From: Deltaproteobacteria bacterium
GTDB lineage: Bacteria > Myxococcota > UBA727 > JABDBI01
Assembly (NCBI GenBank): GCA_016432245.1
Contig: CP066680.1
Coordinates: forward strand, 1-34,109
Reading direction: 5' to 3'
DNA: 34,109 nucleotides
The notes beneath the pieces were generated by a model. That model saw only the letters and a list, made by a program, of their open reading frames with translations, had not been told where the DNA came from and ran no database searches. A program made the translations under genes and the position numbers. This document shows, in pieces, positions 23,258-34,109 of this stretch (position 1 is its first letter; every line of letters starts with the position of its first letter).

Positions 23258-25372
23258 CTATTTTACAAGTGGCATGAGGGAATTGAAGAGAAATGGATTT
23301 GAGATTTGTGTTTGCATTAGGAATCGCGTTAGAGAGTTTCCGTAACTGTTATCTTGTTTGTCTATTACGAAGTATAAATAATTTTTTGCTCTGGTAATTC
23401 CGACATATAGAAGACGAGCTGATTCTGCTTCTGTTGTTTTTTTTATTTCATGCACAGTTTTGTCTAAAATAGTTTGAGTTTTAAATCCTTTGTCTTTTTT
23501 TAAAGTTTGTGATGATATATATAGTTGAGGTAAGGAATCTGAGACTGGATTGTATAGGATAGTATCTTGTTTAAGTGTATAATAAAAATTTAAATCGATT
23601 AGAACAACTACAGGAAATTCAAGACCTTTTGATTGATGTAATGTCATTAGATTTATCGCAGGAGAGGAAGGCTCGACTTCATTTTTTTTATTGTTATTTT
23701 TATGTGAGAATCTTATTGAATCTAGGAAATTATTAATTTCATTTTTATAATTCTCAACGAAGTCTGTTGTTGATTCTTTTAGTTTGCTTATATTAAATAG
23801 CTTTTGAGGGAGATCAGGATGCAGTGAAAGATTTGTTAGATATTGTCCTTCAATAAGGATACGATCAATAATTTGCGATAAAGGCTTTATTCCAAGCATC
23901 GTTTTTAGGGAGAGTATAAATGATGTTGAGAGCCAAGTAGGGGTATGATTTGCATATACAGAAAATGAGCAAATACATTTTTTTATTTTAATAAATGTCG
24001 ATTTATGTAGAGTAAGAATGTATAAAATAGATATTATGTCTATAATTTCTCTTTGATCATATATATTGTAGCTATGAGATAAATTTGTAGGAATTTTCGC
24101 ATTTCTTAATGTTTCTTGAATCTTGTAAAAAACATTGCTTCTTCTGGAAAGGATAGTTATGTCGGAAAGATGAAATTTATTTGTTTGTATCCAAAAGATT
24201 ATCTTTTGAATGAAATTTTTGCCAAGAATTCCACCAGCAATTTTATTTTTTTTTTCTGAGGTTAATAAGTCGGCTGGTTTTAGTCTTGCAATAGTGGAGG
24301 CTGATACGAAATTTGAGAAATATATAATACTAGAAGATGATCTTCTTGAAGATACTAAATATGTATTTCTTGTATTGAAATATGAACTTTCTAGTGTTGC
24401 GCCTCTAAATGAGTAAATGCTTTGTTTTTGGTCTCCAATAAGGAAGGTCTTAGTATTTTTTTTAGAGAGTAGGTATATTAATTTATTTTGATTTGGAGAT
24501 ATATCTTGGCATTCATCTATTAAAATGCAGTTAAATTGAGGTAGTTTAGTGTGAGTTTGAAGTGTTAATATTCCTTCTTTTACTAGGTTGGTTAGGCTAT
24601 AATGATTTGGAATTTTGGTTTTGGTAATTCTTTTTAAAATTTGAATAATCATGTTGGATATGAATACCGAATTTAGATATTGAATTGTGGATAAAAGTTT
24701 AGCAAGAATAGATTTTAATTGGATTTTTTCTAGTTGTTTTGTTTGATTGAGTGAGAATAAAATTGTGGTTTTATCTAGTATATATTTAGCCGTTAATTTG
24801 TTTTTATTTTGCATAAAGATATTTGCAAGCAGATACAGGGTAGGATGAGTGTTTTCTATGTTGATAATTGAGGATAGTAGAAAGTACATTTTAATATCAA
24901 CATCTAGATGCCATTTCATTCTGGTAGGCGTATTTCTGTTAATTAAGGGTGAAATGTCATTTTCTTGAATCTTACAGATTGAAGTAAAGATTCCTTTGAT
25001 AAATGATTTTTTATTTATTTGATATGAATAAGATACATTTTCTTTCAGTGTGTTATGAATTTCTTGTAAGATTTCTTTGAAGTTTTCATCAGGTGATATT
25101 ATTTGAATAGGGGCATGCTTGTATGAAAGGCTTTGAATACAAAATGAGTGAAAGGTTTGTATTGGTAAGTCTAATAGATTATTGATTGGTAAATTGTTTT
25201 TTATAATACTGTTGATTATTCTTTCTTTTATTTCGTTCGTTGCTTTCTGAGAAAATGTGATGGCGAGTGGTCTCTTGTTTTCTAAGATAGATTTTAAAAA
25301 ATATAAGGTTAAAAGGTGTGTTTTTCCAGTTCCTGCTCCTGCAAGAATTAGTGTAAAAGTTGAATCTGACAT
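23258..25372 (-). CDS. Superfamily 1 UvrD/Rep/RecB-family DNA helicase with RecB/AddA-like motifs and no nuclease domain
   Basis: It has AGAGTGKT (motif I), TFHSFC, ILIDECQD (motif II), IGDQKQSIYSFRGA (motif III in the RecB/AddA style), LHQSKGLEFPVV and YVGITRAK (motif VI). It is 704 aa, shorter than RecB, which I recall as about 1180 aa. Confidence 0.8.
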   Translation of the reverse strand: MSDSTFTLILAGAGTGKTHLLTLYFLKSILENKRPLAITFSQKATNEIKERIINSIIKNNLPINNLLDLPIQTFHSFCIQSLSYKHAPIQIISPDENFKEILQEIHNTLKENVSYSYQINKKSFIKGIFTSICKIQENDISPLINRNTPTRMKWHLDVDIKMYFLLSSIINIENTHPTLYLLANIFMQNKNKLTAKYILDKTTILFSLNQTKQLEKIQLKSILAKLLSTIQYLNSVFISNMIIQILKRITKTKIPNHYSLTNLVKEGILTLQTHTKLPQFNCILIDECQDISPNQNKLIYLLSKKNTKTFLIGDQKQSIYSFRGATLESSYFNTRNTYLVSSRRSSSSIIYFSNFVSASTIARLKPADLLTSEKKNKIAGGILGKNFIQKIIFWIQTNKFHLSDITILSRRSNVFYKIQETLRNAKIPTNLSHSYNIYDQREIIDIISILYILTLHKSTFIKIKKCICSFSVYANHTPTWLSTSFILSLKTMLGIKPLSQIIDRILIEGQYLTNLSLHPDLPQKLFNISKLKESTTDFVENYKNEINNFLDSIRFSHKNNNKKNEVEPSSPAINLMTLHQSKGLEFPVVVLIDLNFYYTLKQDTILYNPVSDSLPQLYISSQTLKKDKGFKTQTILDKTVHEIKKTTEAESARLLYVGITRAKNYLYFVIDKQDNSYGNSLTRFLMQTQISNPFLFNSLMPLVK

Positions 25373-25419
25373 AGGTTTTTTATTGACTTCTTTGCAAATA
25401 GTATAAAATATTCTTTGAT

Positions 25420-25863
25420 ATGGGTGTCAAATTGTTTGTTGATGGAGCTTGCTTAAATAATCCAGGTCCTGGAGGATGGGCTGCTATGATTGTTACTTCG
25501 TATTCTAGCACAATTTTTTCCGGGGGAGAAGTAGAAAGTACGAACAATAAAATGGAATTAGTGTCAATAATTAGAGGAATAGAGTTTATTCGTGCGAATT
25601 TTATGATAAAAAGCGAAATTAAGATTTTTTCGGATAGTAGCTATGTTGTGCATGGGGCTTCTAGATGGTTGGCTATCTGGAAAAAGGCACAATGGAAAAG
25701 GTCTGGAAAATTAATTCCTAACTTTTATTATTGGAAAGAGATAGCAGAGTTAATTAGGGAAATAGATATAAGATGGGTTTGGATCAGAGGTCATTGTGGT
25801 ATAATGGAAAATGATATTGTTGATAAAGTGGCGAAATTAGAAGCTTTAAGGTTTTTAAATTGA
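25420..25863 (+). CDS. rnhA: Ribonuclease HI
   Basis: It has DGACLNNPGPGGWAA, TNNKMEL, SDSSYV and RGHCG..END..D, which are the RNase H catalytic residue blocks. Length is 147 aa. Confidence 0.92.
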   Translation: MGVKLFVDGACLNNPGPGGWAAMIVTSYSSTIFSGGEVESTNNKMELVSIIRGIEFIRANFMIKSEIKIFSDSSYVVHGASRWLAIWKKAQWKRSGKLIPNFYYWKEIAELIREIDIRWVWIRGHCGIMENDIVDKVAKLEALRFLN

Positions 25864-25907
25864 GGCTTGCAATTGTAGAAATACTTTATTATATAAAGAT
25901 AAAGCCT

Positions 25908-25921
25908 TTGATGGAGATCAG
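25908..25921. promoter_or_regulatory. FNR/CRP-family-like palindrome TTGAT-GGAG-ATCAG upstream of the cytochrome c / nos cluster
   Basis: It matches the FNR/DNR consensus TTGAT-N4-ATCAA at 9 of 10 positions. Its centre (about 25914.5) lies about 41.5 nt upstream of the start predicted from a GAAAAT -10-like hexamer (25945-25950). This is the spacing of class II FNR promoters. The site is about 80 nt upstream of the cytochrome c ATG. Confidence 0.3.
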
Positions 25922-25995
25922 TGTGGTTTTTAAGAGTTATTCCTGAAAATGGTTTATTTTAAAATGATTAGGAATCAGGGCTGGAGGTATAGTTT

Positions 25996-26508
25996 ATGAA
26001 AAAATATTTAATGGTATTTATTTGTACAACTTCATTATTTATGAGCTCTTGTATGTTTTTTAAAAAGAATACGCATTCTGGTAGTGGAGTGAATACACAA
26101 ACAGCTGTTAAATCTTTGAAAAACAAAGAAGTAGTTCGCGAAAATATGGTTACAAGTAAGATAGTTATTCCTGGTATTGGAATAGGTCCAATAAAAGATA
26201 AAATTGAAGTGTCTCTTCAAATAGATGAGTCTAAAGCGCAGCAAGGAATGACTTTATTTGGTCAAAAATGTAGTGCATGTCATAAGATTGAAGAGAAATA
26301 TGTGGGACCAGCATTAAAGGGTGTTACTAAGAGACGGCAGCCTGAGTGGATTTTAAATATGATAATGAATCCAGTTGAGATGACTCAAAAAGACGAAGTG
26401 GCAAAAGAGTTGTTAGCTGAACACTTGACTCAAATGACATATCAGAATGTTGATATAAAAGAAGCGTACGCTATTTTAGAGTACTTTAGGTTAGAGGATT
26501 CTAGATAG
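25996..26508 (+). CDS. Monoheme c-type cytochrome, probable lipoprotein and candidate electron donor to NosZ
   Basis: It has a single CSACH heme-binding motif with a downstream NPVEM (candidate Met ligand). The N-terminal signal has a lipobox-like LFMSSC. A GGAGG Shine-Dalgarno lies 8 nt upstream. The gene sits directly upstream of nosZ. Confidence 0.85.
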   Translation: MKKYLMVFICTTSLFMSSCMFFKKNTHSGSGVNTQTAVKSLKNKEVVRENMVTSKIVIPGIGIGPIKDKIEVSLQIDESKAQQGMTLFGQKCSACHKIEEKYVGPALKGVTKRRQPEWILNMIMNPVEMTQKDEVAKELLAEHLTQMTYQNVDIKEAYAILEYFRLEDSR

Positions 26509-26772
26509 AGTGACTTTTTCTGTTATTTAGTAATTTTTTTTTAAAAAAAGTTGGGAGTCTTTTAAAGATTCATTGAAATGATAAAAAAAAGATGTAATAG
26601 TATTTTTGGTGCGAGCATGCTGAATGGATAGTGTGCTTGATGGTTCTTTTTGCGTAAGTGAAAAGAGGTAGGACATGTGGAAAGGTCATATAAGATTTTC
26701 TTATGCGATTTCTTAAACTAAGTTTGGATTTTAAATTTAGCTGCATGTCTGAGTTTTAGTGGGGGATATGTT

Positions 26773-28869
26773 ATGTTAAAAGCTAAAACGTTATTTTGGG
26801 CTGTTTTATCAGCTTTAATTATTCAAGTTGGTTGTGGAAAATCTATCGAATTGCCATTCTTAAAGAAGGGAAGTAAAGAAGTTAAAGTTAACAAAGAAGT
26901 TAAAATTAACAAAGAAGTGGCAATAGAGAATGTTACAAAAGAAGGATCGAAGGATGAATTAGTGGATTCTGAAATGAATATTGGGGAAAATATGGAGAAA
27001 AAAGAAGAAGCAGGTGTTAGTATGAATCTAAGTCTGCCAAGTGATGAGGTAATCGCAGCTTCAATGACCTATGTTGCTCCAGGTTCATATGATGAATTTT
27101 ACTGGTTCATGTCAGGTGGTTATAGTGGGCAAGTTTCAGTTTATGGAATTCCATCAGGAAGATTGTTTAAGATTATTCCAGTGTTTTCCTTATTTCCAGA
27201 AAATGGATATGGATTTGAGGAAGAGACAAAAGATATGTTGCTAACTTCATATGGACATATACCATGGGATGACTCTCATCATCCAGAGGTATCATTGACT
27301 AAAGGAGAGCAAGATGGAAGGTGGCTTTTTATAAATGGAAATAATACACCACGAATCGCACGTATCGATTTAAAGTCTTTTGAAACGACTCAAATTATTG
27401 AGATCCCAAATTCTGCAGGGAACCATGGGTCTCCTTTTCTTACTGAAAATACAGAGTATTTGATGGCATCTACGCGGTTTTCAATTCCGATATTGCAATC
27501 TAACGTAGCAATTCAAGATGCTGCTAAAGGAAAGTTTAAAGGTACAATTTCTTTGGTAAGTGTTGATAAAGATACGGGAGATATGAATTTAAAGGGACAA
27601 GTTTTGGTACCAGGATATGATTATGACATTGCTCATTGTGGAAAAGGTGCGTCCCATGATTGGTGTTTTTTTACATCCTATAATACAGAACAAGCTTACG
27701 AGATGTTAGAAAGTAATTCTGCTAAAAATGAAAAAGATTATATTTTGGCATTTAATTGGGTTGGTGCGCAAAAGTGTTTTAATGATGGGAAGGCAAAAAA
27801 TGTTACTACAGCGTACTATAGGAATACGCATCCTGAGAATAAGCCGACAGTTTCGGAAAAGTTTACTAAGACAAAGTTGTTAGATCCTAAGGATTGTCCA
27901 GGAATAATGTATTATTTGCCAACGCCTAAAAATCCACATGGGTGCGATGTTGATCCGACAGGGGAATATATAGTTGCGGGTGGAAAGCTAGCTTCAATGA
28001 TACCGGTTCATTCTTTTTCTAAGTTTATGCAAGCAAAAGATAATATGGACAGTAGAGAAAGTGTAATCGACGGAATTCCCGTATTGAAGTATGAATCTAC
28101 TTTGGCAGCAGAGGTTAGTAAGCCATGCATAGGACCGCTTCATACTGAATTTGATGGCAATGGGTATGGGTATACATCATGCTTTGTAAGTTCAGAGGTT
28201 GTAAAGTGGAAATTAGGGACATGGGAAATTGTAGATAGAGTTCCTTCGTATTATAGTATAGGGCATTTGAGTATTTCTGGAGGAGATTCTGCAAAGCCGA
28301 ATCCAAAATATTTACTTGCTTTAAATAAGATAACTAAGGATAGATATCTTCCTGTTGGCGCAGAGCTTGCTCATAGTGCACAGTTGTATAGCCTTGGAGG
28401 CGATAAAATGAAATTACTTTTAGATTTTCCAACGGTTGGTGAGCCGCATTATGCACAAGGAGTTCCGGCTTCATTGTTGCAGGATAATGCACAAAGGATC
28501 TACAGACTAGATCATAATGCTCATCCATATGCAACAAAGCAAGAATCAGAAGCAAAAGTTGTCAGAGCGAAAAACGTTGTACATGTTTATATGACAGCAA
28601 TTCGTTCTCATTTTAAACCTGACACTGTTGAAGTAAAAGTAGGAGATGTTGTATATTTTCATGTAACGAATCTAGAACAGGATTATGATATTCCACATGG
28701 GTTTGCAGTTAAGGGTTCAAAAAACTCTGGAGTGTTAATTATGCCGGGCCAGACGAAAACAGTTAAATGGAATGCTGAAAAAGCAGGAATTTATCCGTTT
28801 TACTGCAGTGACTTCTGTTCAGCGTTGCATCAAGAAATGCAGCAGTATATTTTAGTAAAGGGAAAGTAA
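26773..28869 (+). CDS. nosZ: Nitrous-oxide reductase NosZ, clade II (Sec-type / lipoprotein-type signal)
   Basis: - The C-terminal CuA motif is present: HGFAV...CSDFCSALHQEM.
- The CuZ-region motif is WDDSHHPE, that is DxHH without the extra His of DxHHxH, as reported for atypical clade II enzymes.
- There is no twin-arginine motif. The signal peptide ends in IIQVGC.
- There is no C-terminal cytochrome domain.
- Length is 698 aa. Confidence 0.93.
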   Translation: MLKAKTLFWAVLSALIIQVGCGKSIELPFLKKGSKEVKVNKEVKINKEVAIENVTKEGSKDELVDSEMNIGENMEKKEEAGVSMNLSLPSDEVIAASMTYVAPGSYDEFYWFMSGGYSGQVSVYGIPSGRLFKIIPVFSLFPENGYGFEEETKDMLLTSYGHIPWDDSHHPEVSLTKGEQDGRWLFINGNNTPRIARIDLKSFETTQIIEIPNSAGNHGSPFLTENTEYLMASTRFSIPILQSNVAIQDAAKGKFKGTISLVSVDKDTGDMNLKGQVLVPGYDYDIAHCGKGASHDWCFFTSYNTEQAYEMLESNSAKNEKDYILAFNWVGAQKCFNDGKAKNVTTAYYRNTHPENKPTVSEKFTKTKLLDPKDCPGIMYYLPTPKNPHGCDVDPTGEYIVAGGKLASMIPVHSFSKFMQAKDNMDSRESVIDGIPVLKYESTLAAEVSKPCIGPLHTEFDGNGYGYTSCFVSSEVVKWKLGTWEIVDRVPSYYSIGHLSISGGDSAKPNPKYLLALNKITKDRYLPVGAELAHSAQLYSLGGDKMKLLLDFPTVGEPHYAQGVPASLLQDNAQRIYRLDHNAHPYATKQESEAKVVRAKNVVHVYMTAIRSHFKPDTVEVKVGDVVYFHVTNLEQDYDIPHGFAVKGSKNSGVLIMPGQTKTVKWNAEKAGIYPFYCSDFCSALHQEMQQYILVKGK
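26875..26919 (+). repeat. Tandem 18-bp repeat (2.5 copies) in the NosZ N-terminal linker
   Basis: The units are aaagaagttaaagttaac (26875-26892), aaagaagttaaaattaac (26893-26910) and aaagaagtg (26911-26919). They encode KEVKVN-KEVKIN-KEV. Confidence 0.9.
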
Positions 28870-28882
28870 ACCAAGAAAGACA

Positions 28883-29506
28883 ATGCGTGTATTAAAATTT
28901 AATCATGTTTTGGTAGGCCTCAGCATAATTTTTATGTTTGGGGCTTATTTTTTCCCAATTTGGCAAATAAGGTTGGCGGCTCCACAATATCCAGAAGGGT
29001 TAGGAATGGAGATATGGCTTAATAAGATAGTTGGTGTTGGAGAATTCGATTTGCAGAATATCAATCTACTAAATCACTATATCGGAATGGCGACAATAAA
29101 TGAACATAATATTTCAGAGTTGCAATATATGCCATATATGGTGTTTGCGTTGATGTTTTTTTCTTTTATTATTCTCTGTATTGATCGATCATTTGCTTTA
29201 AATCTATTGTTTAAGGGGTTGCTAGCAATTGGTCTTGTTGGTGTTTTTGATTTTTGGTATTGGGAGTATTCCTATGGGCATAATTTGAATCCAAAAGCAT
29301 CTATTAAGATCCCGGGTATGACGTATCAACCTCCGTTTTTGGGTTGTGAGAATTTATTAAATATTGTAGCATGTAGTTATCCAGGAATCGGTTTTATCTT
29401 GATTGGATTAGCTGGTTTTTGTATTTTCATTGCAGTTTTTAAGCAAAAAATTGTTGAAATTTTAAAGAGCACTGCTGAAAAGGAATTAGAGGAGATTGTG
29501 GAGTGA
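28883..29506 (+). CDS. nosB: Integral membrane protein with about 4 TM helices, NosB-like (conserved partner downstream of clade II nosZ)
   Basis: It has four hydrophobic segments: VLVGLSIIFMFGAYFFPIW, MPYMVFALMFFSFIILCI, LLAIGLVGVFDFWYW and GFILIGLAGFCIFIAVF. It lies immediately 3' of a clade-II-type nosZ, and its end overlaps nosL in a GTGA overlap. The name is assigned from gene context only. Confidence 0.5.
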   Translation: MRVLKFNHVLVGLSIIFMFGAYFFPIWQIRLAAPQYPEGLGMEIWLNKIVGVGEFDLQNINLLNHYIGMATINEHNISELQYMPYMVFALMFFSFIILCIDRSFALNLLFKGLLAIGLVGVFDFWYWEYSYGHNLNPKASIKIPGMTYQPPFLGCENLLNIVACSYPGIGFILIGLAGFCIFIAVFKQKIVEILKSTAEKELEEIVE

Positions 29507-29904
29507 GGGAGTTTGTGTTATTGCTGTGTTTTGTTTTGATAGGCTGTCAATATAGAGAACCGCTAGATGAAACGCATCGAGGAAAGGCTCAGTGTGCCAA
29601 TTGTAAAATGAATATAGTAGATTATAAGTTTCGATCTATAATTATAACGGAGAAAGGCAAAATAATTCCATTTGATTCCATAGAGTGTTTGCTTGGGTGG
29701 GGGCGTATTTATAGAAAAAAATGTCAAGTTTTTTTTTCTGATTTTAGGGCTCCGGATACTTTAATCGTAGGGAAAAAAGCTTTTATCTTAAAAAGTGATA
29801 AAAGACCATCTCCGATGGGAGGTGGATTAAGTGCATATTCAACTTTAGAATCTGTATTACAGGCACAAAGACAAGTTGGAGGCGTAAGGATTGAAATTAA
29901 ATGA
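29503..29904 (+). CDS. nosL: Copper chaperone lipoprotein NosL (GTG start)
   Basis: It has a perfect lipobox LIGC and the NosL-type CANCKM motif. Its size is about 130 aa. A GAGGAG Shine-Dalgarno lies upstream. The GTG start overlaps the nosB stop codon. Confidence 0.8.
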   Translation: MREFVLLLCFVLIGCQYREPLDETHRGKAQCANCKMNIVDYKFRSIIITEKGKIIPFDSIECLLGWGRIYRKKCQVFFSDFRAPDTLIVGKKAFILKSDKRPSPMGGGLSAYSTLESVLQAQRQVGGVRIEIK

Positions 29905-31091
29905 ATATATTTTTTTTATTATTAGGAATCTGTTTTAGTAATTTTGCTTATGCAATCGATATTCACCATCTAATAGAGATTGCTAAGCCTTTCGATGAAA
30001 TAACAATTCCTTTCGGAGCGTATAAGGTTGGGACAATTTTAATTGATAAGCCGTTGACAATAAAGGGAATAGGTATGCCTATTTTGGATGGACAGGGAGA
30101 AAAGAACACAGTAAAAATTGAGGCGCCAGATGTGATAATTGAGGGTTTTGAAATTATTGGATCTGGATATAGTGAAGTGGCAGAATATGCAGGGGTTAAG
30201 ATAGAAGCAGGAGAAAGATGTGAGGTTAAAAATAATAAATTTAACAATAATACATATTCAGTTTTCCTCGTAAAGTCAAAAGATTGTCGGATTTTTAATA
30301 ACATTATTAGTGCAGATGCAAAATATGAAGCTACAAGTGGAAATGGTGTTCATTTATGGAATTGTAAAGGTATAATTGTTGAAGATAATGTTATACGAGG
30401 ACATCGGGATGGAATATATATAGAGTTTACAACAGATTCGATGATAAAAAATAATTTATCTGAGCAAAATATTCGATATGGCCTTCATTTTATGTATTCA
30501 CATAGAAATAAATATGTAAGAAATTCTTTTTTAAACAATCAAACAGGAGTCGCAGTAATGTATTCAAAAAATATTGAAATGCTTGAGAATGATTTTCAAA
30601 AGAGCTGGGGACGGTCTTCTTATGGGTTGTTATTAAAGGATATTTCAGATAGTTATATAGGGTATAATAGTTTTAGGGGAAATACAATGGGAATTGTATG
30701 TGATGCCGCAAGTAGAAATATTTTTATTGGAAATTCTGTTAAGGATAATGGATGGGCTTTAAATATACTAGGGAATTCAGAGTCTAATTTTTTTAAGAAC
30801 AATGTTTTTATTTCTAACTTTTTTGACGCAATGACAAATGCTGAAAGAACCACAAATGTATTTTGGGGAAATTATTGGAATTTATATTTTGGATATGACT
30901 TAAATTATGATGGAATAGGGGATTCTCCATATAGGCCTATGAAGATGTTCGCTAAATGGGTTGCAAAATATCCGGAATTAACAGTTTTATTAGGATCGCC
31001 TGTAGTAGAGTTTTTAGAAATTGCAGAAAAGGTCTTTCCAATTCTTACGCCAATTACATTTATGGATTCAGCTCCATTAATGAGGAGGTAA
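29901..31091 (+). CDS. nosD: NosD, periplasmic beta-helix (CASH-domain) component of the NosDFY system
   Basis: It has an N-terminal signal and many ~22-aa N/G/I-rich repeat turns (...NN.I.....GI.L...) typical of parallel beta-helix NosD. It lies between nosL and the ABC ATPase gene, and its start overlaps nosL (ATGA). Confidence 0.85.
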   Translation: MNIFFLLLGICFSNFAYAIDIHHLIEIAKPFDEITIPFGAYKVGTILIDKPLTIKGIGMPILDGQGEKNTVKIEAPDVIIEGFEIIGSGYSEVAEYAGVKIEAGERCEVKNNKFNNNTYSVFLVKSKDCRIFNNIISADAKYEATSGNGVHLWNCKGIIVEDNVIRGHRDGIYIEFTTDSMIKNNLSEQNIRYGLHFMYSHRNKYVRNSFLNNQTGVAVMYSKNIEMLENDFQKSWGRSSYGLLLKDISDSYIGYNSFRGNTMGIVCDAASRNIFIGNSVKDNGWALNILGNSESNFFKNNVFISNFFDAMTNAERTTNVFWGNYWNLYFGYDLNYDGIGDSPYRPMKMFAKWVAKYPELTVLLGSPVVEFLEIAEKVFPILTPITFMDSAPLMRR

Positions 31092-31093
31092 AA

Positions 31094-31792
31094 ATGGATG
31101 ATTTAGTATTAGAGATTCAAGGTTTAAGGAAAAGCTATAAAAAGCAATGTGTCTTGCAACATGTGAATTTACAGGTGCAACATTCTTCAATATGTGCTTT
31201 GCTTGGACCGAATGGTTCAGGGAAAACAACGTTGCTAAAGATAATTTTAGGGCTTATATATCCCACTTCGTATATATTATTTAAAAACATCGACAAAGAG
31301 GATATTAGGTATATGCCACAGCATCCAAACTTTCCGCCAAATATAAAAGTTAGCGAATTATTGTCACTTATTCAAAGTTTAAAAAAACAAAAAGGCGAAG
31401 ATTTGGAAGAGCTTATTTACACTTTTTCAGTAGAATCTTTTTTAGATAAATGCATAAGAGAGTTATCTGGCGGAATGAAGCAAAGGGTAAATATTGTACA
31501 AGCATTTATGTTTCCAGGGTATTTGTATTTGCTAGATGAGCCAACAATGGGGCTAGATCCTCATGTTGCATTTTTATTTAAAAATCTTTTGAGAAGGAAA
31601 AGAGATCAAGGAGCTGCAATATTATTTACATCTCACATTATGAGCGAAGTGGAACAGCTTGCAGATGAATTAGTGCTTATGATTGAAGGATATGTGTATA
31701 TGCAGAGTGATCCGCAAACTATCATCACAGAGGGAGATGCTATGAATTTAGAGCAAGCACTACATCATTATTGGATTGCAAAGGTAGATTAA
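31094..31792 (+). CDS. nosF: NosF, ABC-type ATPase; the start is trimmed from the ORF-track 30956 to the ATG at 31094
   Basis: It has Walker A GPNGSGKTT, the signature LSGGMKQR and Walker B LYLLDEPTMGLD. An AGGAGG lies 5 nt upstream of the ATG at 31094. The longer ORF would overlap nosD by 136 nt, and that extra segment has no homology. Confidence 0.9.
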   Translation: MDDLVLEIQGLRKSYKKQCVLQHVNLQVQHSSICALLGPNGSGKTTLLKIILGLIYPTSYILFKNIDKEDIRYMPQHPNFPPNIKVSELLSLIQSLKKQKGEDLEELIYTFSVESFLDKCIRELSGGMKQRVNIVQAFMFPGYLYLLDEPTMGLDPHVAFLFKNLLRRKRDQGAAILFTSHIMSEVEQLADELVLMIEGYVYMQSDPQTIITEGDAMNLEQALHHYWIAKVD

Positions 31793-31793
31793 A

Positions 31794-32558
31794 ATGAAAA
31801 CTATTATATTTTACGAACTAAAAGAGATGATTAGAAATAAATGGTGGTTAGGGTATGGGTTGTCTTTTTTTATATTAAGTTCACTTATTTTTCATACAGG
31901 GGTTACGGAGTCATTAAGGGCAAGTGCATCATTGTTAAATTTAGTGCTGTTGCTTGTGCCGTTATTTTCATTGGTTTTTGGATCTATAAGCTTTGTAGAG
32001 AATATGCCATTTCAAGAGGTTTTATTGGCAATTCCAACAAGTAGGTTTTCTATATTTTTTGGCAAATGGCTTGGATTATCGATTGGTTTATCTTTGTCTT
32101 TTGTATTAGGAATGGGAGTATCTTCTCTTTGGTATTCTGTAAACGTAGTATTTCTAATGGGTTTAGGGGTGGTTTTAACATTTATATTTGTTAGTATTTC
32201 TTTTTTGTTGTCAAATTTTTTAAAAAAGAAAGAATTAATTTTTGGAATTGTTCTGCTTATATGGTTGTTATTTTTTTTAGTGTATGATGTTGCGATAATG
32301 GCAATAGTATCCTTATTGAGTGATTACCCATTGGAAAAATTAATAGTGTTGTTGGTTTTTTTTAATCCTATTGATGTTGTGCGAACAATGGTAACTATAC
32401 AAGAGGATTTATCTGCCATGATGGGATATTCAGGTGCATTGTTTTATAAATATTTTGGGAGTGGAATGGGAGTTTCTCTTTGTGGAGGGATATTGATATT
32501 GTGGATTCTTTTTCCACTAATCTTAGGATATTGGAAATATAAACGGAAAGACCTGTAA
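31794..32558 (+). CDS. nosY: NosY, ABC-2-type membrane permease
   Basis: It is a hydrophobic protein with about 6 TM helices, 254 aa long, starting 1 nt after the nosF stop codon in the canonical nosDFY order. Confidence 0.85.
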   Translation: MKTIIFYELKEMIRNKWWLGYGLSFFILSSLIFHTGVTESLRASASLLNLVLLLVPLFSLVFGSISFVENMPFQEVLLAIPTSRFSIFFGKWLGLSIGLSLSFVLGMGVSSLWYSVNVVFLMGLGVVLTFIFVSISFLLSNFLKKKELIFGIVLLIWLLFFLVYDVAIMAIVSLLSDYPLEKLIVLLVFFNPIDVVRTMVTIQEDLSAMMGYSGALFYKYFGSGMGVSLCGGILILWILFPLILGYWKYKRKDL

Positions 32559-32559
32559 T

Positions 32560-33297
32560 ATGAGAAATATTGTGTATGTTGTTTTCAGCTATTTTATAGT
32601 CTCAATTGGATTTTTGGTTAGTGGAGAAATGATTAGAGTTCCAGATGGGTTATATCATCCACTTACAATAGGGAACGATTTAGATTTTGAATATGTCAAA
32701 TCCTTTGAAATAGATCAGTATCCAGTAACTGTATTTGAGTATTTGAGGTTTTTAAAAGAGAATCCACATTGGGTAAGGTCGCAAGCGTCACCTATATATG
32801 TAGGATTTTCTTATTTGAAAAACTGGAAGAGTGACTTTGATCCAGGAGAAAAAGTTGAGTTACAAGCACCTGTTTCTCAAGTTTCATGGTTTGCTGCAAA
32901 GTATTTTTGTCATTACTATGGGAAGAGATTACCTACATTGGCTGAGTGGGAATATATAGCAGCAGAGCCTATGCCTTCAATTAAGAAAATCCTTACATTT
33001 TATATTAAACAAGACTTGCATGCGTCAACAAAGGTTGGCTTCTCTTATAAAAATAGAAATGGCATATATGGTTTGCATGGGTTGGTTTTTGAATGGGTAT
33101 TTGATTACGATTCGGATGTTTATCTTGGAGATGGAAGAGAAAGTAGTGAAGCAGAAAAGGTTGAATCTTTTTGTGGGGGAGGTGCTTTTGGAGTTTCAGA
33201 CCTGGCTAATTATCCAGCTTTTATTAGAAAATCATTTCGAAATAATTTGTATGCACAGTATTCTTCAACCAATTTAGGATTTAGGTGTGTTAAATGA
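32560..33297 (+). CDS. Formylglycine-generating-enzyme (SUMF1/FGE-sulfatase) family protein with an N-terminal membrane anchor or signal
   Basis: It has the family blocks YPVTVFEYLRFL, PVSQVSWFAAKYFCHYYGKRLPTLAEWEYIA, GLHGLVFEWVFD and LGFRCV. It starts 1 nt after the nosY stop codon and overlaps the sco start (ATGA). Confidence 0.8.
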   Translation: MRNIVYVVFSYFIVSIGFLVSGEMIRVPDGLYHPLTIGNDLDFEYVKSFEIDQYPVTVFEYLRFLKENPHWVRSQASPIYVGFSYLKNWKSDFDPGEKVELQAPVSQVSWFAAKYFCHYYGKRLPTLAEWEYIAAEPMPSIKKILTFYIKQDLHASTKVGFSYKNRNGIYGLHGLVFEWVFDYDSDVYLGDGRESSEAEKVESFCGGGAFGVSDLANYPAFIRKSFRNNLYAQYSSTNLGFRCVK

Positions 33298-33860
33298 TTT
33301 TTTGTCATAAGATGTTGCTTTTATATTATTCTATTTCAGTTTTATCGGCTAGCTTGCATGAAAAATATTCTTTCCCTTTATATACCATAAATTCAGTTTG
33401 GTATGATGATAATGGGAATCTGACCACGATGCAGTCTTTAAGAGGAGGGGTGAAAATATTTCTCATGGCTTATACGGGCTGTGAGGCTGCATGCCCCTTA
33501 TTAATAGAGGAAATTTTGAAAATAGATAAATTTTTCAATAAAGACGGAAAGGTCAATGTTTCTTTTGTTTATTTTTCGATAGATCCGGAGAATGATACGC
33601 CTGCTCGCTTAAGAGAATATAGGGAAAAAAATGGATTATCGAGAGCAAAGTGGACCCTTCTTACTTCCGATGAAAACACGGTTAGAGAACTGGCTGCTGT
33701 ATTGGGCTTTAAAATGAAAAAAGACGCAAGGGGATATTCTCATTCTAATTTGTTAACTGTAATAAATCAGAGTGGTCTTATAATGCATCAGCAGCATGAG
33801 ATCAATCAAATACAAACAGAAGCTACTATAGAAGGCATTAAGCAGGTCTTAAGCGAATAG
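33294..33860 (+). CDS. Sco1/SenC-family copper chaperone (thioredoxin fold)
   Basis: It has the CxxxCP motif YTGCEAACP and a downstream conserved His (YSHSNLL), plus an N-terminal hydrophobic anchor. Length is 188 aa. Confidence 0.85.
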   Translation: MIFCHKMLLLYYSISVLSASLHEKYSFPLYTINSVWYDDNGNLTTMQSLRGGVKIFLMAYTGCEAACPLLIEEILKIDKFFNKDGKVNVSFVYFSIDPENDTPARLREYREKNGLSRAKWTLLTSDENTVRELAAVLGFKMKKDARGYSHSNLLTVINQSGLIMHQQHEINQIQTEATIEGIKQVLSE

Positions 33861-33873
33861 ATAGGAGGAACGT

Positions 33874-34109
33874 GTGATAACGAAGTCGGGGGCTAAAAAC
33901 TTTTTTGTAATAGGTACAGTTTTATGTGGGCTTTCATTTATTGGATTAGCGTTGCTTACGTTTAGAGCAATTCCGTCTAGGACAAATGTGGTTGATATGG
34001 ATGAGTCTGTTATTCGAGGGAAAAAAATTTGGGAAAGAAAAAATTGTATGGGATGCCATACGTTGTTGGGTGAAGGTGGGTATTACGCACCAGAGTTAAC
34101 CAAAGTAAC
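33874..34109 (+). CDS. norC: NorC-like membrane-anchored cytochrome c (small subunit of nitric-oxide reductase), 5' fragment running off the window
   Basis: This gene is not in the ORF track, because it has a GTG start and is truncated by the window end. An AGGAGG (33863-33868) lies 5 nt before the GTG at 33874. The translation is VITKSGAKNFFVIGTVLCGLSFIGLALLTF...GKKIWERKNCMGCHTLLGEGGYYAPELTKV. That gives one TM helix followed by CxxCH and the GEG.Y.APEL block that I recall from NorC-type subunits. Confidence 0.7.
   Translation, partial: MITKSGAKNFFVIGTVLCGLSFIGLALLTFRAIPSRTNVVDMDESVIRGKKIWERKNCMGCHTLLGEGGYYAPELTKV

What the first reader, a model, noticed from the sequence alone, without database searches (positions are those of the whole stretch)
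32560..33297. FGE/SUMF1-family gene embedded in the translationally coupled nos operon between nosY and sco
A formylglycine-generating-enzyme-family protein is not part of the canonical nosZDFYL(R/X) set. Here it starts 1 nt after nosY and overlaps the Sco gene by ATGA, so it is almost certainly co-translated with the Cu-centre assembly genes. No sulfatase gene, the usual FGE client, is present in this window, and I would not expect one in a genome this reduced.

FGE enzymes are themselves copper-dependent. As far as I recall, the nirK-linked NirV protein belongs to the same family. Only one Cys (FCGGG) is visible in the region where canonical FGEs carry a catalytic Cys pair. This suggests a periplasmic or membrane-tethered copper-handling or maturation factor for NosZ (or NirK or Nor) whose role in N2O reduction has, to my knowledge, not been assigned.
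Basis: partly seen in the sequence, partly recalled or inferred. Interest (0 to 1): 0.6.

Follow-up and report, generated by a model that had tools for sequence, protein, structure and literature searches.

The report
NirK-linked FGE-fold helper, displaced beside nosY
The gene is real, but it is the widespread and still uncharacterised "NirV-like" partner of copper nitrite reductase and the Sco copper chaperone, which a rearrangement in this 312-kb genome has placed after nosY, so it is probably not a dedicated helper of nitrous-oxide reductase.

Summary
ORF 32560-33297 (245 aa) is a PF03781 FGE-fold protein. It starts 1 nt after the nosY stop and overlaps Sco by ATGA. The genome has no sulfatase and no other FGE-family gene.

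- **Not a true FGE:** the copper-binding Cys pair is absent. The only universally conserved Cys, C205, lies 7 residues upstream of where that pair would be.
- **Linked to nirK, not nos:** in 78 of the 80 best homologous loci nirK lies directly upstream, and in 77 Sco lies directly downstream. nos genes lie within 10 kb in only 5.
- **Flavobacteriales (301 genomes):** the subfamily occurs in 37 of 38 NirK+ genomes, in 0 of 263 NirK- genomes, and in 0 of 36 NosZ+ NirK- genomes.
- **A verrucomicrobial class (151 genomes):** the pattern is the same, restricted to one NirK clade.
- **Fusions:** at least 18 natural FGE-like-Sco fusion clusters exist.
- **Rearrangement:** the nearest reduced relative keeps nirK-FGE-sco-norCBQD. 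Here nirK sits after norB, so nosY now abuts the FGE-like gene.

Best reading: an exported, single-Cys partner of Sco that helps assemble or maintain the copper centres of Sec-exported NirK. That mechanism is inferred, not shown. This scan has noted the same nirK-nirV-sco module on other DNA. It is a new member of a known but functionally unassigned kind.

The parts
32560..33297 (+). FGE-fold, NirV-like gene (P0001, 245 aa), a member of the Sco-coupled, nirK-linked subfamily
   Evidence: PF03781 at E 8.7e-27. It scores 283 bits against the subfamily profile, whereas other FGE paralogues score below 91 bits. It keeps 27 of 27 invariant and 46 of 50 columns that are at least 90% conserved.
32560..32628 (+). 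N-terminal signal peptide or membrane anchor (residues 1-23: a basic residue, then a 17-residue hydrophobic stretch, then VSG)
   Evidence: Read from the sequence. All 58 homologues with a complete N-terminus have a hydrophobic h-region, and 3 have a lipobox.
33172..33174 (+). Codon of Cys205 (motif FCG), the only universally conserved cysteine of the subfamily
   Evidence: C205 is present in 64 of 64 aligned members and in 126 of 126 aligned representative clusters. C243 (motif GFRC) is replaced in 9 clusters. C205 aligns with Leu of RVLRGGS in S. coelicolor FGE, not with a catalytic Cys.
33294..33860 (+). Sco/SenC copper chaperone gene, overlapping the FGE-like gene by ATGA
   Evidence: PF02630 at E 4.9e-16. 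CxxxCP and His150 are invariant in 38 module Sco proteins. It is the only Sco in the genome.
31794..32558 (+). nosY, the last gene of the nos module, ending 1 nt before the FGE-like start
   Evidence: PF12679 ABC-2 membrane protein. It matches NosY of flavobacterial nos clusters.
25996..32558 (+). Clade II nos module: cytochrome c, nosZ, a 207-aa NosB-like protein, nosL, nosD, nosF, nosY
   Evidence: The genes are tightly packed, with overlaps or 1-nt gaps.
33874..34109 (+). Start of norC, cut by the window end. Beyond the window follow norB, nirK (genome 36452-37552), a 783-aa cytochrome c protein, norQ and norD.
   Evidence: on L002 (G000:33800-46000).

Best explanation
P0001 belongs to a distinct, widespread subfamily of exported FGE-fold proteins whose ancestral place is nirK, then the FGE-like gene, then sco.

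- It has lost the Cu(I)-binding Cys pair of true formylglycine-generating enzymes and keeps a single invariant Cys in a flexible loop.
- It most likely acts in the periplasm together with the Sco chaperone, to which it is translationally coupled here and physically fused in many other lineages.
- The probable role is to load, or to keep competent, the copper centres of the Sec-exported nitrite reductase NirK. One way this could work is that it holds an unfolded or apo segment of NirK, as FGE holds its Cys-containing substrate peptide, while Sco supplies Cu(I) or reducing equivalents.
- In this 312-kb genome nirK has moved to a position after norB. The FGE-like-sco pair therefore directly follows nosY, and one tightly packed gene string runs nos, FGE-like, sco, norCB, nirK, norQD.

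Shown: family membership, loss of the Cys pair, the export signal, the linkage to nirK and sco, the fusions, and the rearrangement. Inferred: copper delivery, and NirK as the client.
For: **Synteny**
- In the 80 best homologous loci, 78 have nirK immediately upstream (median gap about 12 nt), 77 have Sco downstream and 76 have both.
- The same triad is annotated in Azoarcus KH32C and Ralstonia solanacearum replicons.
- In Neisseria gonorrhoeae the gene after aniA is a homologue.

**Co-occurrence**
- Flavobacteriales, 301 genomes: all 37 genomes with the FGE-like gene are NirK+ (38 NirK+ in total), and 0 of 263 NirK- genomes have it.
- A verrucomicrobial class, 151 genomes: the 12 genomes with the FGE-like gene are exactly the 12 with the best-scoring, long NirK genes, and the gene is adjacent in each.

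**Fusions with Sco**
- 18 clusters of FGE-like-Sco fusions were found. Sixteen of the 17 representatives of 400-484 aa were scanned against Pfam and all have both domains; P0054 has both by its precomputed annotation, and the unscanned one, P0199, also carries CxxxCP. All 18 keep C205 and the Sco CxxxCP motif.
- Two fusions were checked in context, and both lie downstream of nirK.
- An AlphaFold2 model of one fusion has pTM 0.84 over both domains.

**Copper context**
- The Sco keeps CxxxC and His.
- It is the only Sco in the genome. There is no PCuAC and no CuA oxidase, so NirK and NosZ are the only evident cuproenzymes.

**Need for periplasmic metallation**
- NirKs of the module have Sec or lipoprotein signals; only 3 of 73 match a Tat-like regex.

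**Rearrangement**
- The nearest reduced relative, G010, has nirK-FGE-sco-norC-norB-norQ-norD, and its protein groups with P0001 in the tree.

**Selection**
- P0001 keeps all 27 invariant residues despite a very long branch.
Against: - There is no biochemical evidence for this subfamily. The literature treats NirV as of unknown activity (PMC10356946) and says NirK maturation needs no other gene (PMC4770552).
- From my own recollection of Jain and Shapleigh 2001, which I did not read here, a nirV mutant of Rhodobacter sphaeroides had no clear Nir defect.
- The subfamily has no invariant His or Met and only one universal Cys, so on its own it is not an obvious Cu(I) site.
- The Cys-containing loop is modelled with low confidence (pLDDT below 50-66).
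- Many FGE-fold proteins are non-catalytic binders, for example pFGE, PorK/GldK and Tsi3 (bioRxiv 10.1101/2021.05.21.445229).
- In this genome the gene is not next to nirK.
- Neisseria has the homologue without an adjacent Sco.
Confidence: 0.6

Rival explanations
1. It is a non-catalytic, non-metal adaptor. The FGE fold would serve only as a periplasmic binding module, as in pFGE/SUMF2, PorK/GldK or Tsi3. It would bind NirK for folding, trimer stability, membrane tethering or docking to NorCB or its electron donor, and Sco would act independently.
For: - The catalytic Cys pair is lost.
- The closest solved relatives include the inactive paralogue pFGE (83.8 bits) and structural FGE-fold lipoproteins.
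- There is no conserved His or Met.
- Some homologues are lipoproteins.
- Neisseria has the gene without an adjacent Sco.
Against: - A Cys that is 100% conserved in a flexible loop is unusual for a mere scaffold.
- Fusion specifically to Sco recurs in at least 18 clusters, and the pairing with Sco is nearly universal (77 of 80). Both point to shared chemistry with a copper and thiol protein.
Confidence: 0.2
2. In this reduced genome the FGE-like-Sco pair also, or instead, serves NosZ, for example in assembling its CuA site. That would explain why it is co-translated with nosDFY.
For: - The gene is 1 nt from nosY and is packed into the nos gene string.
- The genome has a single Sco and no PCuAC, yet has two cuproenzymes, NirK and NosZ.
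- Some nos clusters carry their own Sco, such as the CusF-Sco fusion after nosY in L006.
- Earlier scan notes e1-695201 and e1-925966 report a different, roughly 395-aa FGE-like family next to nosY in other bacteria. I did not verify those notes.
Against: - The subfamily was not found in any NosZ+ genome that lacks this NirK type: 0 of 36 Flavobacteriales and 0 of 5 verrucomicrobial genomes. In those 5, no PF03781 gene lies on the nosZ contig.
- Only 5 of 80 loci have nos genes within 10 kb.
- Flavobacterial nosY is followed by unrelated genes.
- The relative G010 has nirK, not nosY, upstream.
- Tight packing is general in this genome.
Confidence: 0.12
3. It is a genuine formylglycine-generating, or otherwise oxidising, enzyme that modifies a Cys or Ser of some client protein.
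For: PF03781 membership, and canonical FGE structures as the best matches.
Against: - Both Cu-binding catalytic Cys positions are Ala in the subfamily.
- The genome has no sulfatase.
- The host pathway is anaerobic denitrification, whereas FGE needs O2. This last point rests on established knowledge of FGE and on the titles of PDB entries 6muj and 6xtp.
Confidence: 0.03

Closest known systems
NirV of Alphaproteobacteria (the gene downstream of nirK in Rhodobacter sphaeroides 2.4.3 and Sinorhizobium meliloti pSymA; Jain and Shapleigh 2001, as cited in PMC4770552 and PMC10356946)
   Same: - It is a PF03781 protein encoded with nirK.
- It lacks the FGE Cys pair.
- It has a Cys that aligns with C205 (SCG against FCG).
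- Its function is unknown.
   Different: - It is only 22% identical, and scores 27 bits against the subfamily profile. Canonical FGEs score about 92 bits.
- It lacks the GKRLPxxEWE motif and the Cys of GFRC.
- It is not followed by Sco; an Fnr/Crp regulator follows in S. meliloti.
- Its NirK carries a Tat signal, whereas the module's NirKs use Sec.
The nirK-FGE-like-SCO modules of Bacteroidota, Ignavibacteriota, Verrucomicrobiota, Bdellovibrionota and Betaproteobacteria. PGAP annotates the two genes as 'formylglycine-generating enzyme family protein' and 'SCO family protein', for example in Azoarcus sp. KH32C pAZKH, the R. solanacearum megaplasmid, and N. gonorrhoeae NGO_1277.
   Same: - It belongs to the same subfamily: 35-46% identity, 283 bits against the profile, and all invariant residues present.
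- It has the same overlap with Sco and the same export signal.
   Different: - Here nirK is not upstream. It lies about 3.1 kb downstream, after norCB, and nosY takes its place.
- The protein is the shortest and most divergent member (branch length 2.5).
- Its NirK lacks the C-terminal cytochrome c domain.
Formylglycine-generating enzyme (human SUMF1, S. coelicolor and T. curvata FGE; PDB 1y1e, 6muj, 5nxl)
   Same: It has the same fold and the family-wide motifs VSW, GKRLPTxAEWE, EWxxD and GFRC.
   Different: - The Cu(I)-binding Cys pair is replaced by Ala and Ala.
- Residues 68-92 form a subfamily-specific segment with invariant W71, Y85, L86 and W89.
- It is exported.
- There is no sulfatase client.

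Membership tests
Canonical aerobic FGE (SUMF1 type) | FGE-sulfatase fold and Pfam PF03781 | tested here: met
   E 8.7e-27. Foldseek's best hits are FGE structures, with probability 1.00 and TM about 0.5.
Canonical aerobic FGE (SUMF1 type) | The two catalytic, Cu(I)-binding cysteines (C-x4-C, as in LCHDSYC of S. coelicolor FGE) | tested here: not met
   The profile alignment to 6muj places Ala and Ala of the subfamily (GAxD..NYAA) opposite both Cys. C205 aligns 7 residues upstream.
Canonical aerobic FGE (SUMF1 type) | A sulfatase client encoded in the genome | tested here: not met
   No PF00884 match in the 311,843-bp single-contig genome, whereas the control search found it in 10 of 14 reference genomes.
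NirV in the strict sense (alphaproteobacterial) | Sequence orthology to characterised NirV | tested here: not met
   22% identity by BLASTP (E 0.008), and 27 bits against the subfamily HMM. That is lower than canonical FGEs, which score 92 bits.
NirV in the strict sense (alphaproteobacterial) | A PF03781 gene immediately downstream of nirK | tested here: not met
   Not met in this genome, where nosY is upstream and nirK lies after norB. It is met in 78 of 80 homologous loci and in the relative G010.
Sco-coupled, nirK-linked FGE-like subfamily | A high score against the subfamily profile, clearly separated from other FGE paralogues | tested here: met
   283 bits, against less than 91 bits for paralogues in related genomes.
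Sco-coupled, nirK-linked FGE-like subfamily | The invariant single Cys (LFCG) and the subfamily-specific W71, Y85, L86 and W89 | tested here: met
   27 of 27 invariant columns are kept. C205 is present in 126 of 126 aligned clusters.
Sco-coupled, nirK-linked FGE-like subfamily | A Sco gene directly downstream, or fused | tested here: met
   ATGA overlap here. Sco is downstream in 77 of 80 loci, and there are 18 fusion clusters.
Sco-coupled, nirK-linked FGE-like subfamily | Co-occurrence with nirK in the genome | tested here: met
   nirK lies in the same gene string at genome position 36452-37552. All 49 genomes carrying the subfamily in the two taxon samples (37 and 12) are NirK+.
nos accessory gene set (factors that mature NosZ) | Co-occurrence with nosZ independently of nirK | tested here: not met
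   0 of 36 NosZ+ NirK- Flavobacteriales genomes carry it, and 26 of the 37 carriers lack nosZ. None of the 5 verrucomicrobial NosZ+ genomes without this NirK type carries it.
Copper metallochaperone | Demonstrated Cu(I) binding or transfer | not testable with these tools
   The evidence is only contextual: coupling and fusion to Sco, and one invariant Cys.

The most novel reading that the evidence does not exclude
The FGE fold has been turned from a copper oxidase into the second subunit of a two-part periplasmic copper insertase. The single-Cys FGE-like protein would grip the unfolded Cys-containing copper-site loop of Sec-exported NirK, as FGE grips its substrate peptide. It would complete a transient three-thiolate Cu(I) site with the CxxxC of Sco and so hand copper to the enzyme. 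Its retention in a 312-kb genome would mean the pair is close to indispensable in vivo. Here the single pair may also serve the CuA site of NosZ.
Probability: 0.25. Interest if true: 0.65.

Novelty: new member of a known kind. Interest (0 to 1): 0.38.

Why it matters
- NirV-type genes have accompanied nirK in annotations since 2001 without an assigned function, and NirK is usually said to need no maturation factor.
- This case adds three pointers toward a role in copper-centre assembly:
  - The gene survives in a genome of only 312 kb.
  - It tracks one Sec-exported NirK clade almost one to one.
  - It is repeatedly fused to Sco.
- If that role is correct, predicting nitrite-reductase activity from genomes, and expressing NirK in other hosts, should take this pair into account.
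- For this window, the practical message is that the gene should be annotated as nirK-associated (NirV-like), not as a new nos gene.

Tried and rejected
- **Complex prediction:** FGE-like residues 24-245 with Sco residues 26-188, using alignments A2 and A3, returned 'no answer' (score 0.07, mark 0.32). This is not evidence either way.
- **Promoter and terminator scan of 25300-34109:** counts equal those of shuffled sequence, so it is uninformative.
- **Literature:**
  - No paper holds nosZ, 'formylglycine-generating enzyme' and 'clade II' together.
  - None holds nirV, nirK and sulfatase together.
  - The two papers on Azoamicus-type endosymbionts do not mention this gene.
- **Host identity:** I first assumed the host was Candidatus Azoamicus, and I did not confirm it. 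The genome has an alternative complex III (scan notes e1-1486341 and e1-1486342). No other species of its genus is held in the collection searched. The other genomes of its family are larger, 0.5-3.4 Mb.
- **ATP/ADP translocase (PF03219):** nothing was found, but the control found nothing either, so this is uninformative.
- **Orthology with alphaproteobacterial NirV:** considered and not supported.
- **A C205-C243 disulfide or two-Cys copper site:** considered and weakened, because C243 is replaced in 9 of 125 aligned clusters, including 3 fusions.
- **One NirK-FGE-like fusion (P0170):** it lies on a contig whose name suggests a nanopore assembly and may be an assembly artefact, so I gave it little weight.
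- **Model coordinates:** these are not available, so the 3-D position of C205 relative to the FGE copper site could not be measured.

Full report
**1. Observation**

ORF 32560-33297 on the + strand encodes a 245-residue protein, P0001. It matches Pfam PF03781 (FGE-sulfatase) at E 8.7e-27. In NCBIfam it gives only sub-threshold hits to EgtB, SenA and PvdO.

The sequence shows the nosY stop ending at 32558 and the ATG at 32560. An ATGA overlap with the next gene sits at 33294-33297. That next gene is a Sco/SenC protein, PF02630.

Upstream lies a Sec-type clade II nos module: cytochrome c, nosZ (TIGR04246, 882 bits), a 207-aa NosB-like protein, then nosL, nosD, nosF and nosY. Downstream of Sco, partly beyond the window, come norC, norB, nirK, a 783-aa cytochrome c protein, norQ and norD.

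The window is the start of a single 311,843-bp contig. That genome holds one PF03781 gene and no PF00884 sulfatase. It has one Sco, no PCuAC and no COX2.

**2. It is not a formylglycine-generating enzyme**

A profile of 28 subfamily members finds canonical FGEs as the best solved relatives, at about 92 bits. In the alignment to S. coelicolor FGE (6muj), both Cu(I)-binding catalytic cysteines face alanines of the subfamily consensus. The subfamily's own conserved Cys, C205 in LFCG, faces the Leu of RVLRGGS, seven residues upstream.

- C205 is present in 64 of 64 aligned members and in 126 of 126 aligned representative clusters from an exhaustive search.
- The second frequent Cys, C243 in GFRC, is replaced in 9 clusters.
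- No His or Met is invariant.
- An AlphaFold2 model has the FGE fold (mean pLDDT 80.9; Foldseek's top hits are FGE, pFGE, CalU17, EgtB and PvdO). The loop that carries C205 has low confidence.
- P0001 and all 58 homologues with complete N-termini begin with a hydrophobic signal or anchor, and a few have lipoboxes. The protein therefore works outside the cytoplasm.

**3. What it travels with**

The 80 best loci from one-genome-per-species contigs come from Flavobacteriia, Ignavibacteriota, Verrucomicrobiota, Bdellovibrionota, Gemmatimonadota, Leptospira and Pseudomonadota. I annotated them with this genome's own Nos, Nor, NirK and Sco proteins.

| Feature in the 80 loci | Count |
|---|---|
| nirK immediately upstream | 78 |
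| Sco downstream | 77 |
| Both | 76 |
| norB nearby | 27 |
| Any nos gene within 10 kb | 5 |

PGAP annotations of Azoarcus sp. KH32C and Ralstonia solanacearum replicons show the same triad of nirK, 'FGE family protein' and 'SCO family protein'. In N. gonorrhoeae the gene after aniA is a 35%-identical homologue, listed as NGO_1277 in PMC12421842.

**4. Co-occurrence**

Subfamily members score above 260 bits and other FGE paralogues below 91 bits, so the two are easy to tell apart.

*Flavobacteriales, 301 genomes:*
- The subfamily is in 37 genomes, NirK in 38 and clade II NosZ in 47.
- All 37 carriers are NirK+, with the two genes adjacent.
- 0 of 263 NirK- genomes carry it.
- Only 11 NosZ+ genomes carry it, and all 11 are NirK+.
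- 0 of 36 NosZ+ NirK- genomes carry it.

*A verrucomicrobial class, 151 genomes:*
- The 12 carriers are exactly the 12 genomes with the best-scoring, long NirK genes.
- 17 genomes with another NirK type lack it.
- 5 of the 7 NosZ+ genomes lack it. In those five, no PF03781 gene lies on the nosZ contig.

Related genomes are not independent, so the Fisher p of 1e-46 overstates the case. The pattern itself is nonetheless clear-cut. The gene follows one NirK clade, not NosZ.

**5. Link to Sco**

An exhaustive profile search returned 1,444 clusters at E of 1e-30 or better. That count includes large multi-repeat FGE proteins.

- Among the top 150, 17 are 400-484 aa long. Sixteen of them were scanned against Pfam, and all are FGE-like-Sco fusions.
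- With P0054 this makes 18 fusion clusters. P0054 has both domains by its precomputed Pfam annotation. All 18 retain C205 and the Sco CxxxCP motif, including the one not scanned against Pfam, P0199.
- Two fusions were examined in context, and both follow nirK.
- An AlphaFold2 model of fusion P0099 has pTM 0.84 over both domains. This suggests a defined packing of the two domains, but it is only the model's own confidence. The Cys loop is again disordered.
- The module's Sco proteins keep the canonical CxxxC and His copper ligands.

**6. Why it is next to nosY here**

The nearest reduced genome of the same family is G010 (about 0.5 Mb). Its gene order is nirK-FGE-sco-norC-norB-norQ-norD. Its protein is the closest relative of P0001, at 46% identity, and the two group together in the tree. 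Both sit on long branches, so that grouping is tentative.

In this genome nirK and a large cytochrome gene lie between norB and norQ, and nosY occupies the place nirK has in G010. The 'embedding in the nos operon' is therefore a lineage-specific rearrangement in a genome where genes are packed end to end.

P0001 still keeps 27 of 27 invariant columns and 46 of 50 highly conserved ones. The four misses are Tyr to Phe, Trp to Phe, Phe to Tyr and Leu to Ser. It is therefore under purifying selection.

**7. Mechanism**

*Shown:*
- It is an exported FGE-fold protein without the FGE copper site.
- It has one invariant Cys in a mobile loop.
- It is obligately linked to nirK, and it is linked or fused to Sco.

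*Supporting context:* NirKs of this module carry Sec or lipoprotein signals, and most have a C-terminal cytochrome c domain. From general knowledge of Sec export, such proteins cross the membrane unfolded and must receive copper in the periplasm.

*Inferred:* the protein cooperates with Sco to metallate NirK or to keep its copper ligands reduced. It may use the peptide-binding groove of the FGE fold to hold a Cys-containing segment of NirK.

*Main rival:* a purely structural adaptor, as in other inactive FGE-fold proteins.

*Weaker possibility:* a role for NosZ in this genome. It cannot be excluded, because this is the only Sco present, but comparative data do not support it.

**8. Comparison with what is known**

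Alphaproteobacterial NirV (S. meliloti pSymA, L083:22737-23651) is also a PF03781 protein downstream of nirK, and it has a Cys that aligns with C205.

- It is only 22% identical and scores 27 bits against the subfamily profile. That is less than canonical FGEs score.
- It is not Sco-coupled.
- Its NirK has a Tat signal.

The literature says nirV is common in nirK operons and that its activity is unknown (PMC10356946). It reports NirV in about 61% of NirK genomes, Bacteroidetes included (PMC4770552), and lists NirV among uncharacterised FGE-family proteins (bioRxiv 10.1101/2021.05.21.445229).

Earlier notes of this scan describe the same nirK-nirV-sco module and its Sco fusions on other DNA (e1-363241, e1-2807344, e1-4312993, e1-4149084). 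They also describe a different, longer FGE-like family beside nosY (e1-695201), which I did not test beyond section 4.

**9. Verdict**

The gene is real and was correctly recognised as a non-canonical FGE-family protein. It should be filed as a member of the nirK-associated, Sco-coupled NirV-like subfamily, displaced next to nosY by rearrangement. It is a new member of a known, functionally unassigned kind.

Interest is moderate. The gene's survival in a 312-kb genome and the recurrent Sco fusions sharpen a testable hypothesis for an old open question, namely what NirV does. The nos-specific reading is not supported.

Noticed in passing
whole genome G000 (window = G000:C1:1-34109): This is a 311,843-bp single-contig genome. 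It carries a contiguous string of nos, sco, nor and nirK genes and, according to earlier scan notes, an alternative complex III. No other species of its genus is held in the collection searched, and the other genomes of its family are 0.5-3.4 Mb. It looks like a denitrifying endosymbiont, but I could not confirm that it is an Azoamicus-type organism. A search for the ATP/ADP translocase family (PF03219) found nothing, but its control found nothing either.
   Followed up: partly
L002:2653-6205 (= genome 36452-40004): This genome's NirK is 366 aa long and lacks the C-terminal cytochrome c domain that most NirKs of the module have (about 485 aa). The next gene encodes a 783-aa protein that ends in a cytochrome c domain. 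The electron-donor domain may have been split off or replaced.
   Followed up: no
alignment A3; for example L005:10777-11493 and L044:10777-11499: In many Flavobacteriia the Sco protein of the nirK module carries an extra N-terminal segment of about 45 aa that is rich in Cys, with the pattern YQCPMxCEG...CPxCKMDL. It looks like a further metal-binding domain. The window's Sco lacks it.
   Followed up: no
L006:19769-20692: In a Limisphaerales genome, nosY is followed by a CusF (PF11604)-Sco (PF02630) fusion. This is a second Sco, dedicated to the nos cluster, and it exists in addition to the Sco of the nirK module.
   Followed up: no
window 28883-29506: The 207-aa protein between nosZ and nosL has no Pfam or NCBIfam hit. 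It does match the gene at the same position in flavobacterial nos clusters (84-121 bits), which PMC9697520 discusses as NosB-like.
   Followed up: partly
L002:7048-8634 (= genome 40847-42433): The NorD-position protein (528 aa) has no Pfam hit at E 0.001. It nevertheless matches NorD-position genes of other nor clusters at 156-400 bits. It is a very divergent NorD.
   Followed up: no
L103:4001-6088: A single 695-aa ORF joins a NirK-like N-terminal part to the FGE-like domain, and a Sco gene follows with a 4-nt overlap. The contig name suggests a nanopore assembly, so the fusion may be an assembly artefact.
   Followed up: partly
L060 (Microbacterium karelineae contig) versus L069 (Epilithonimonas tenax): The nirK-FGE-sco locus assigned to an actinobacterial assembly is nearly identical in the tree to one from a Weeksellaceae genome. 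This suggests either contamination of that assembly or a very recent transfer.
   Followed up: no
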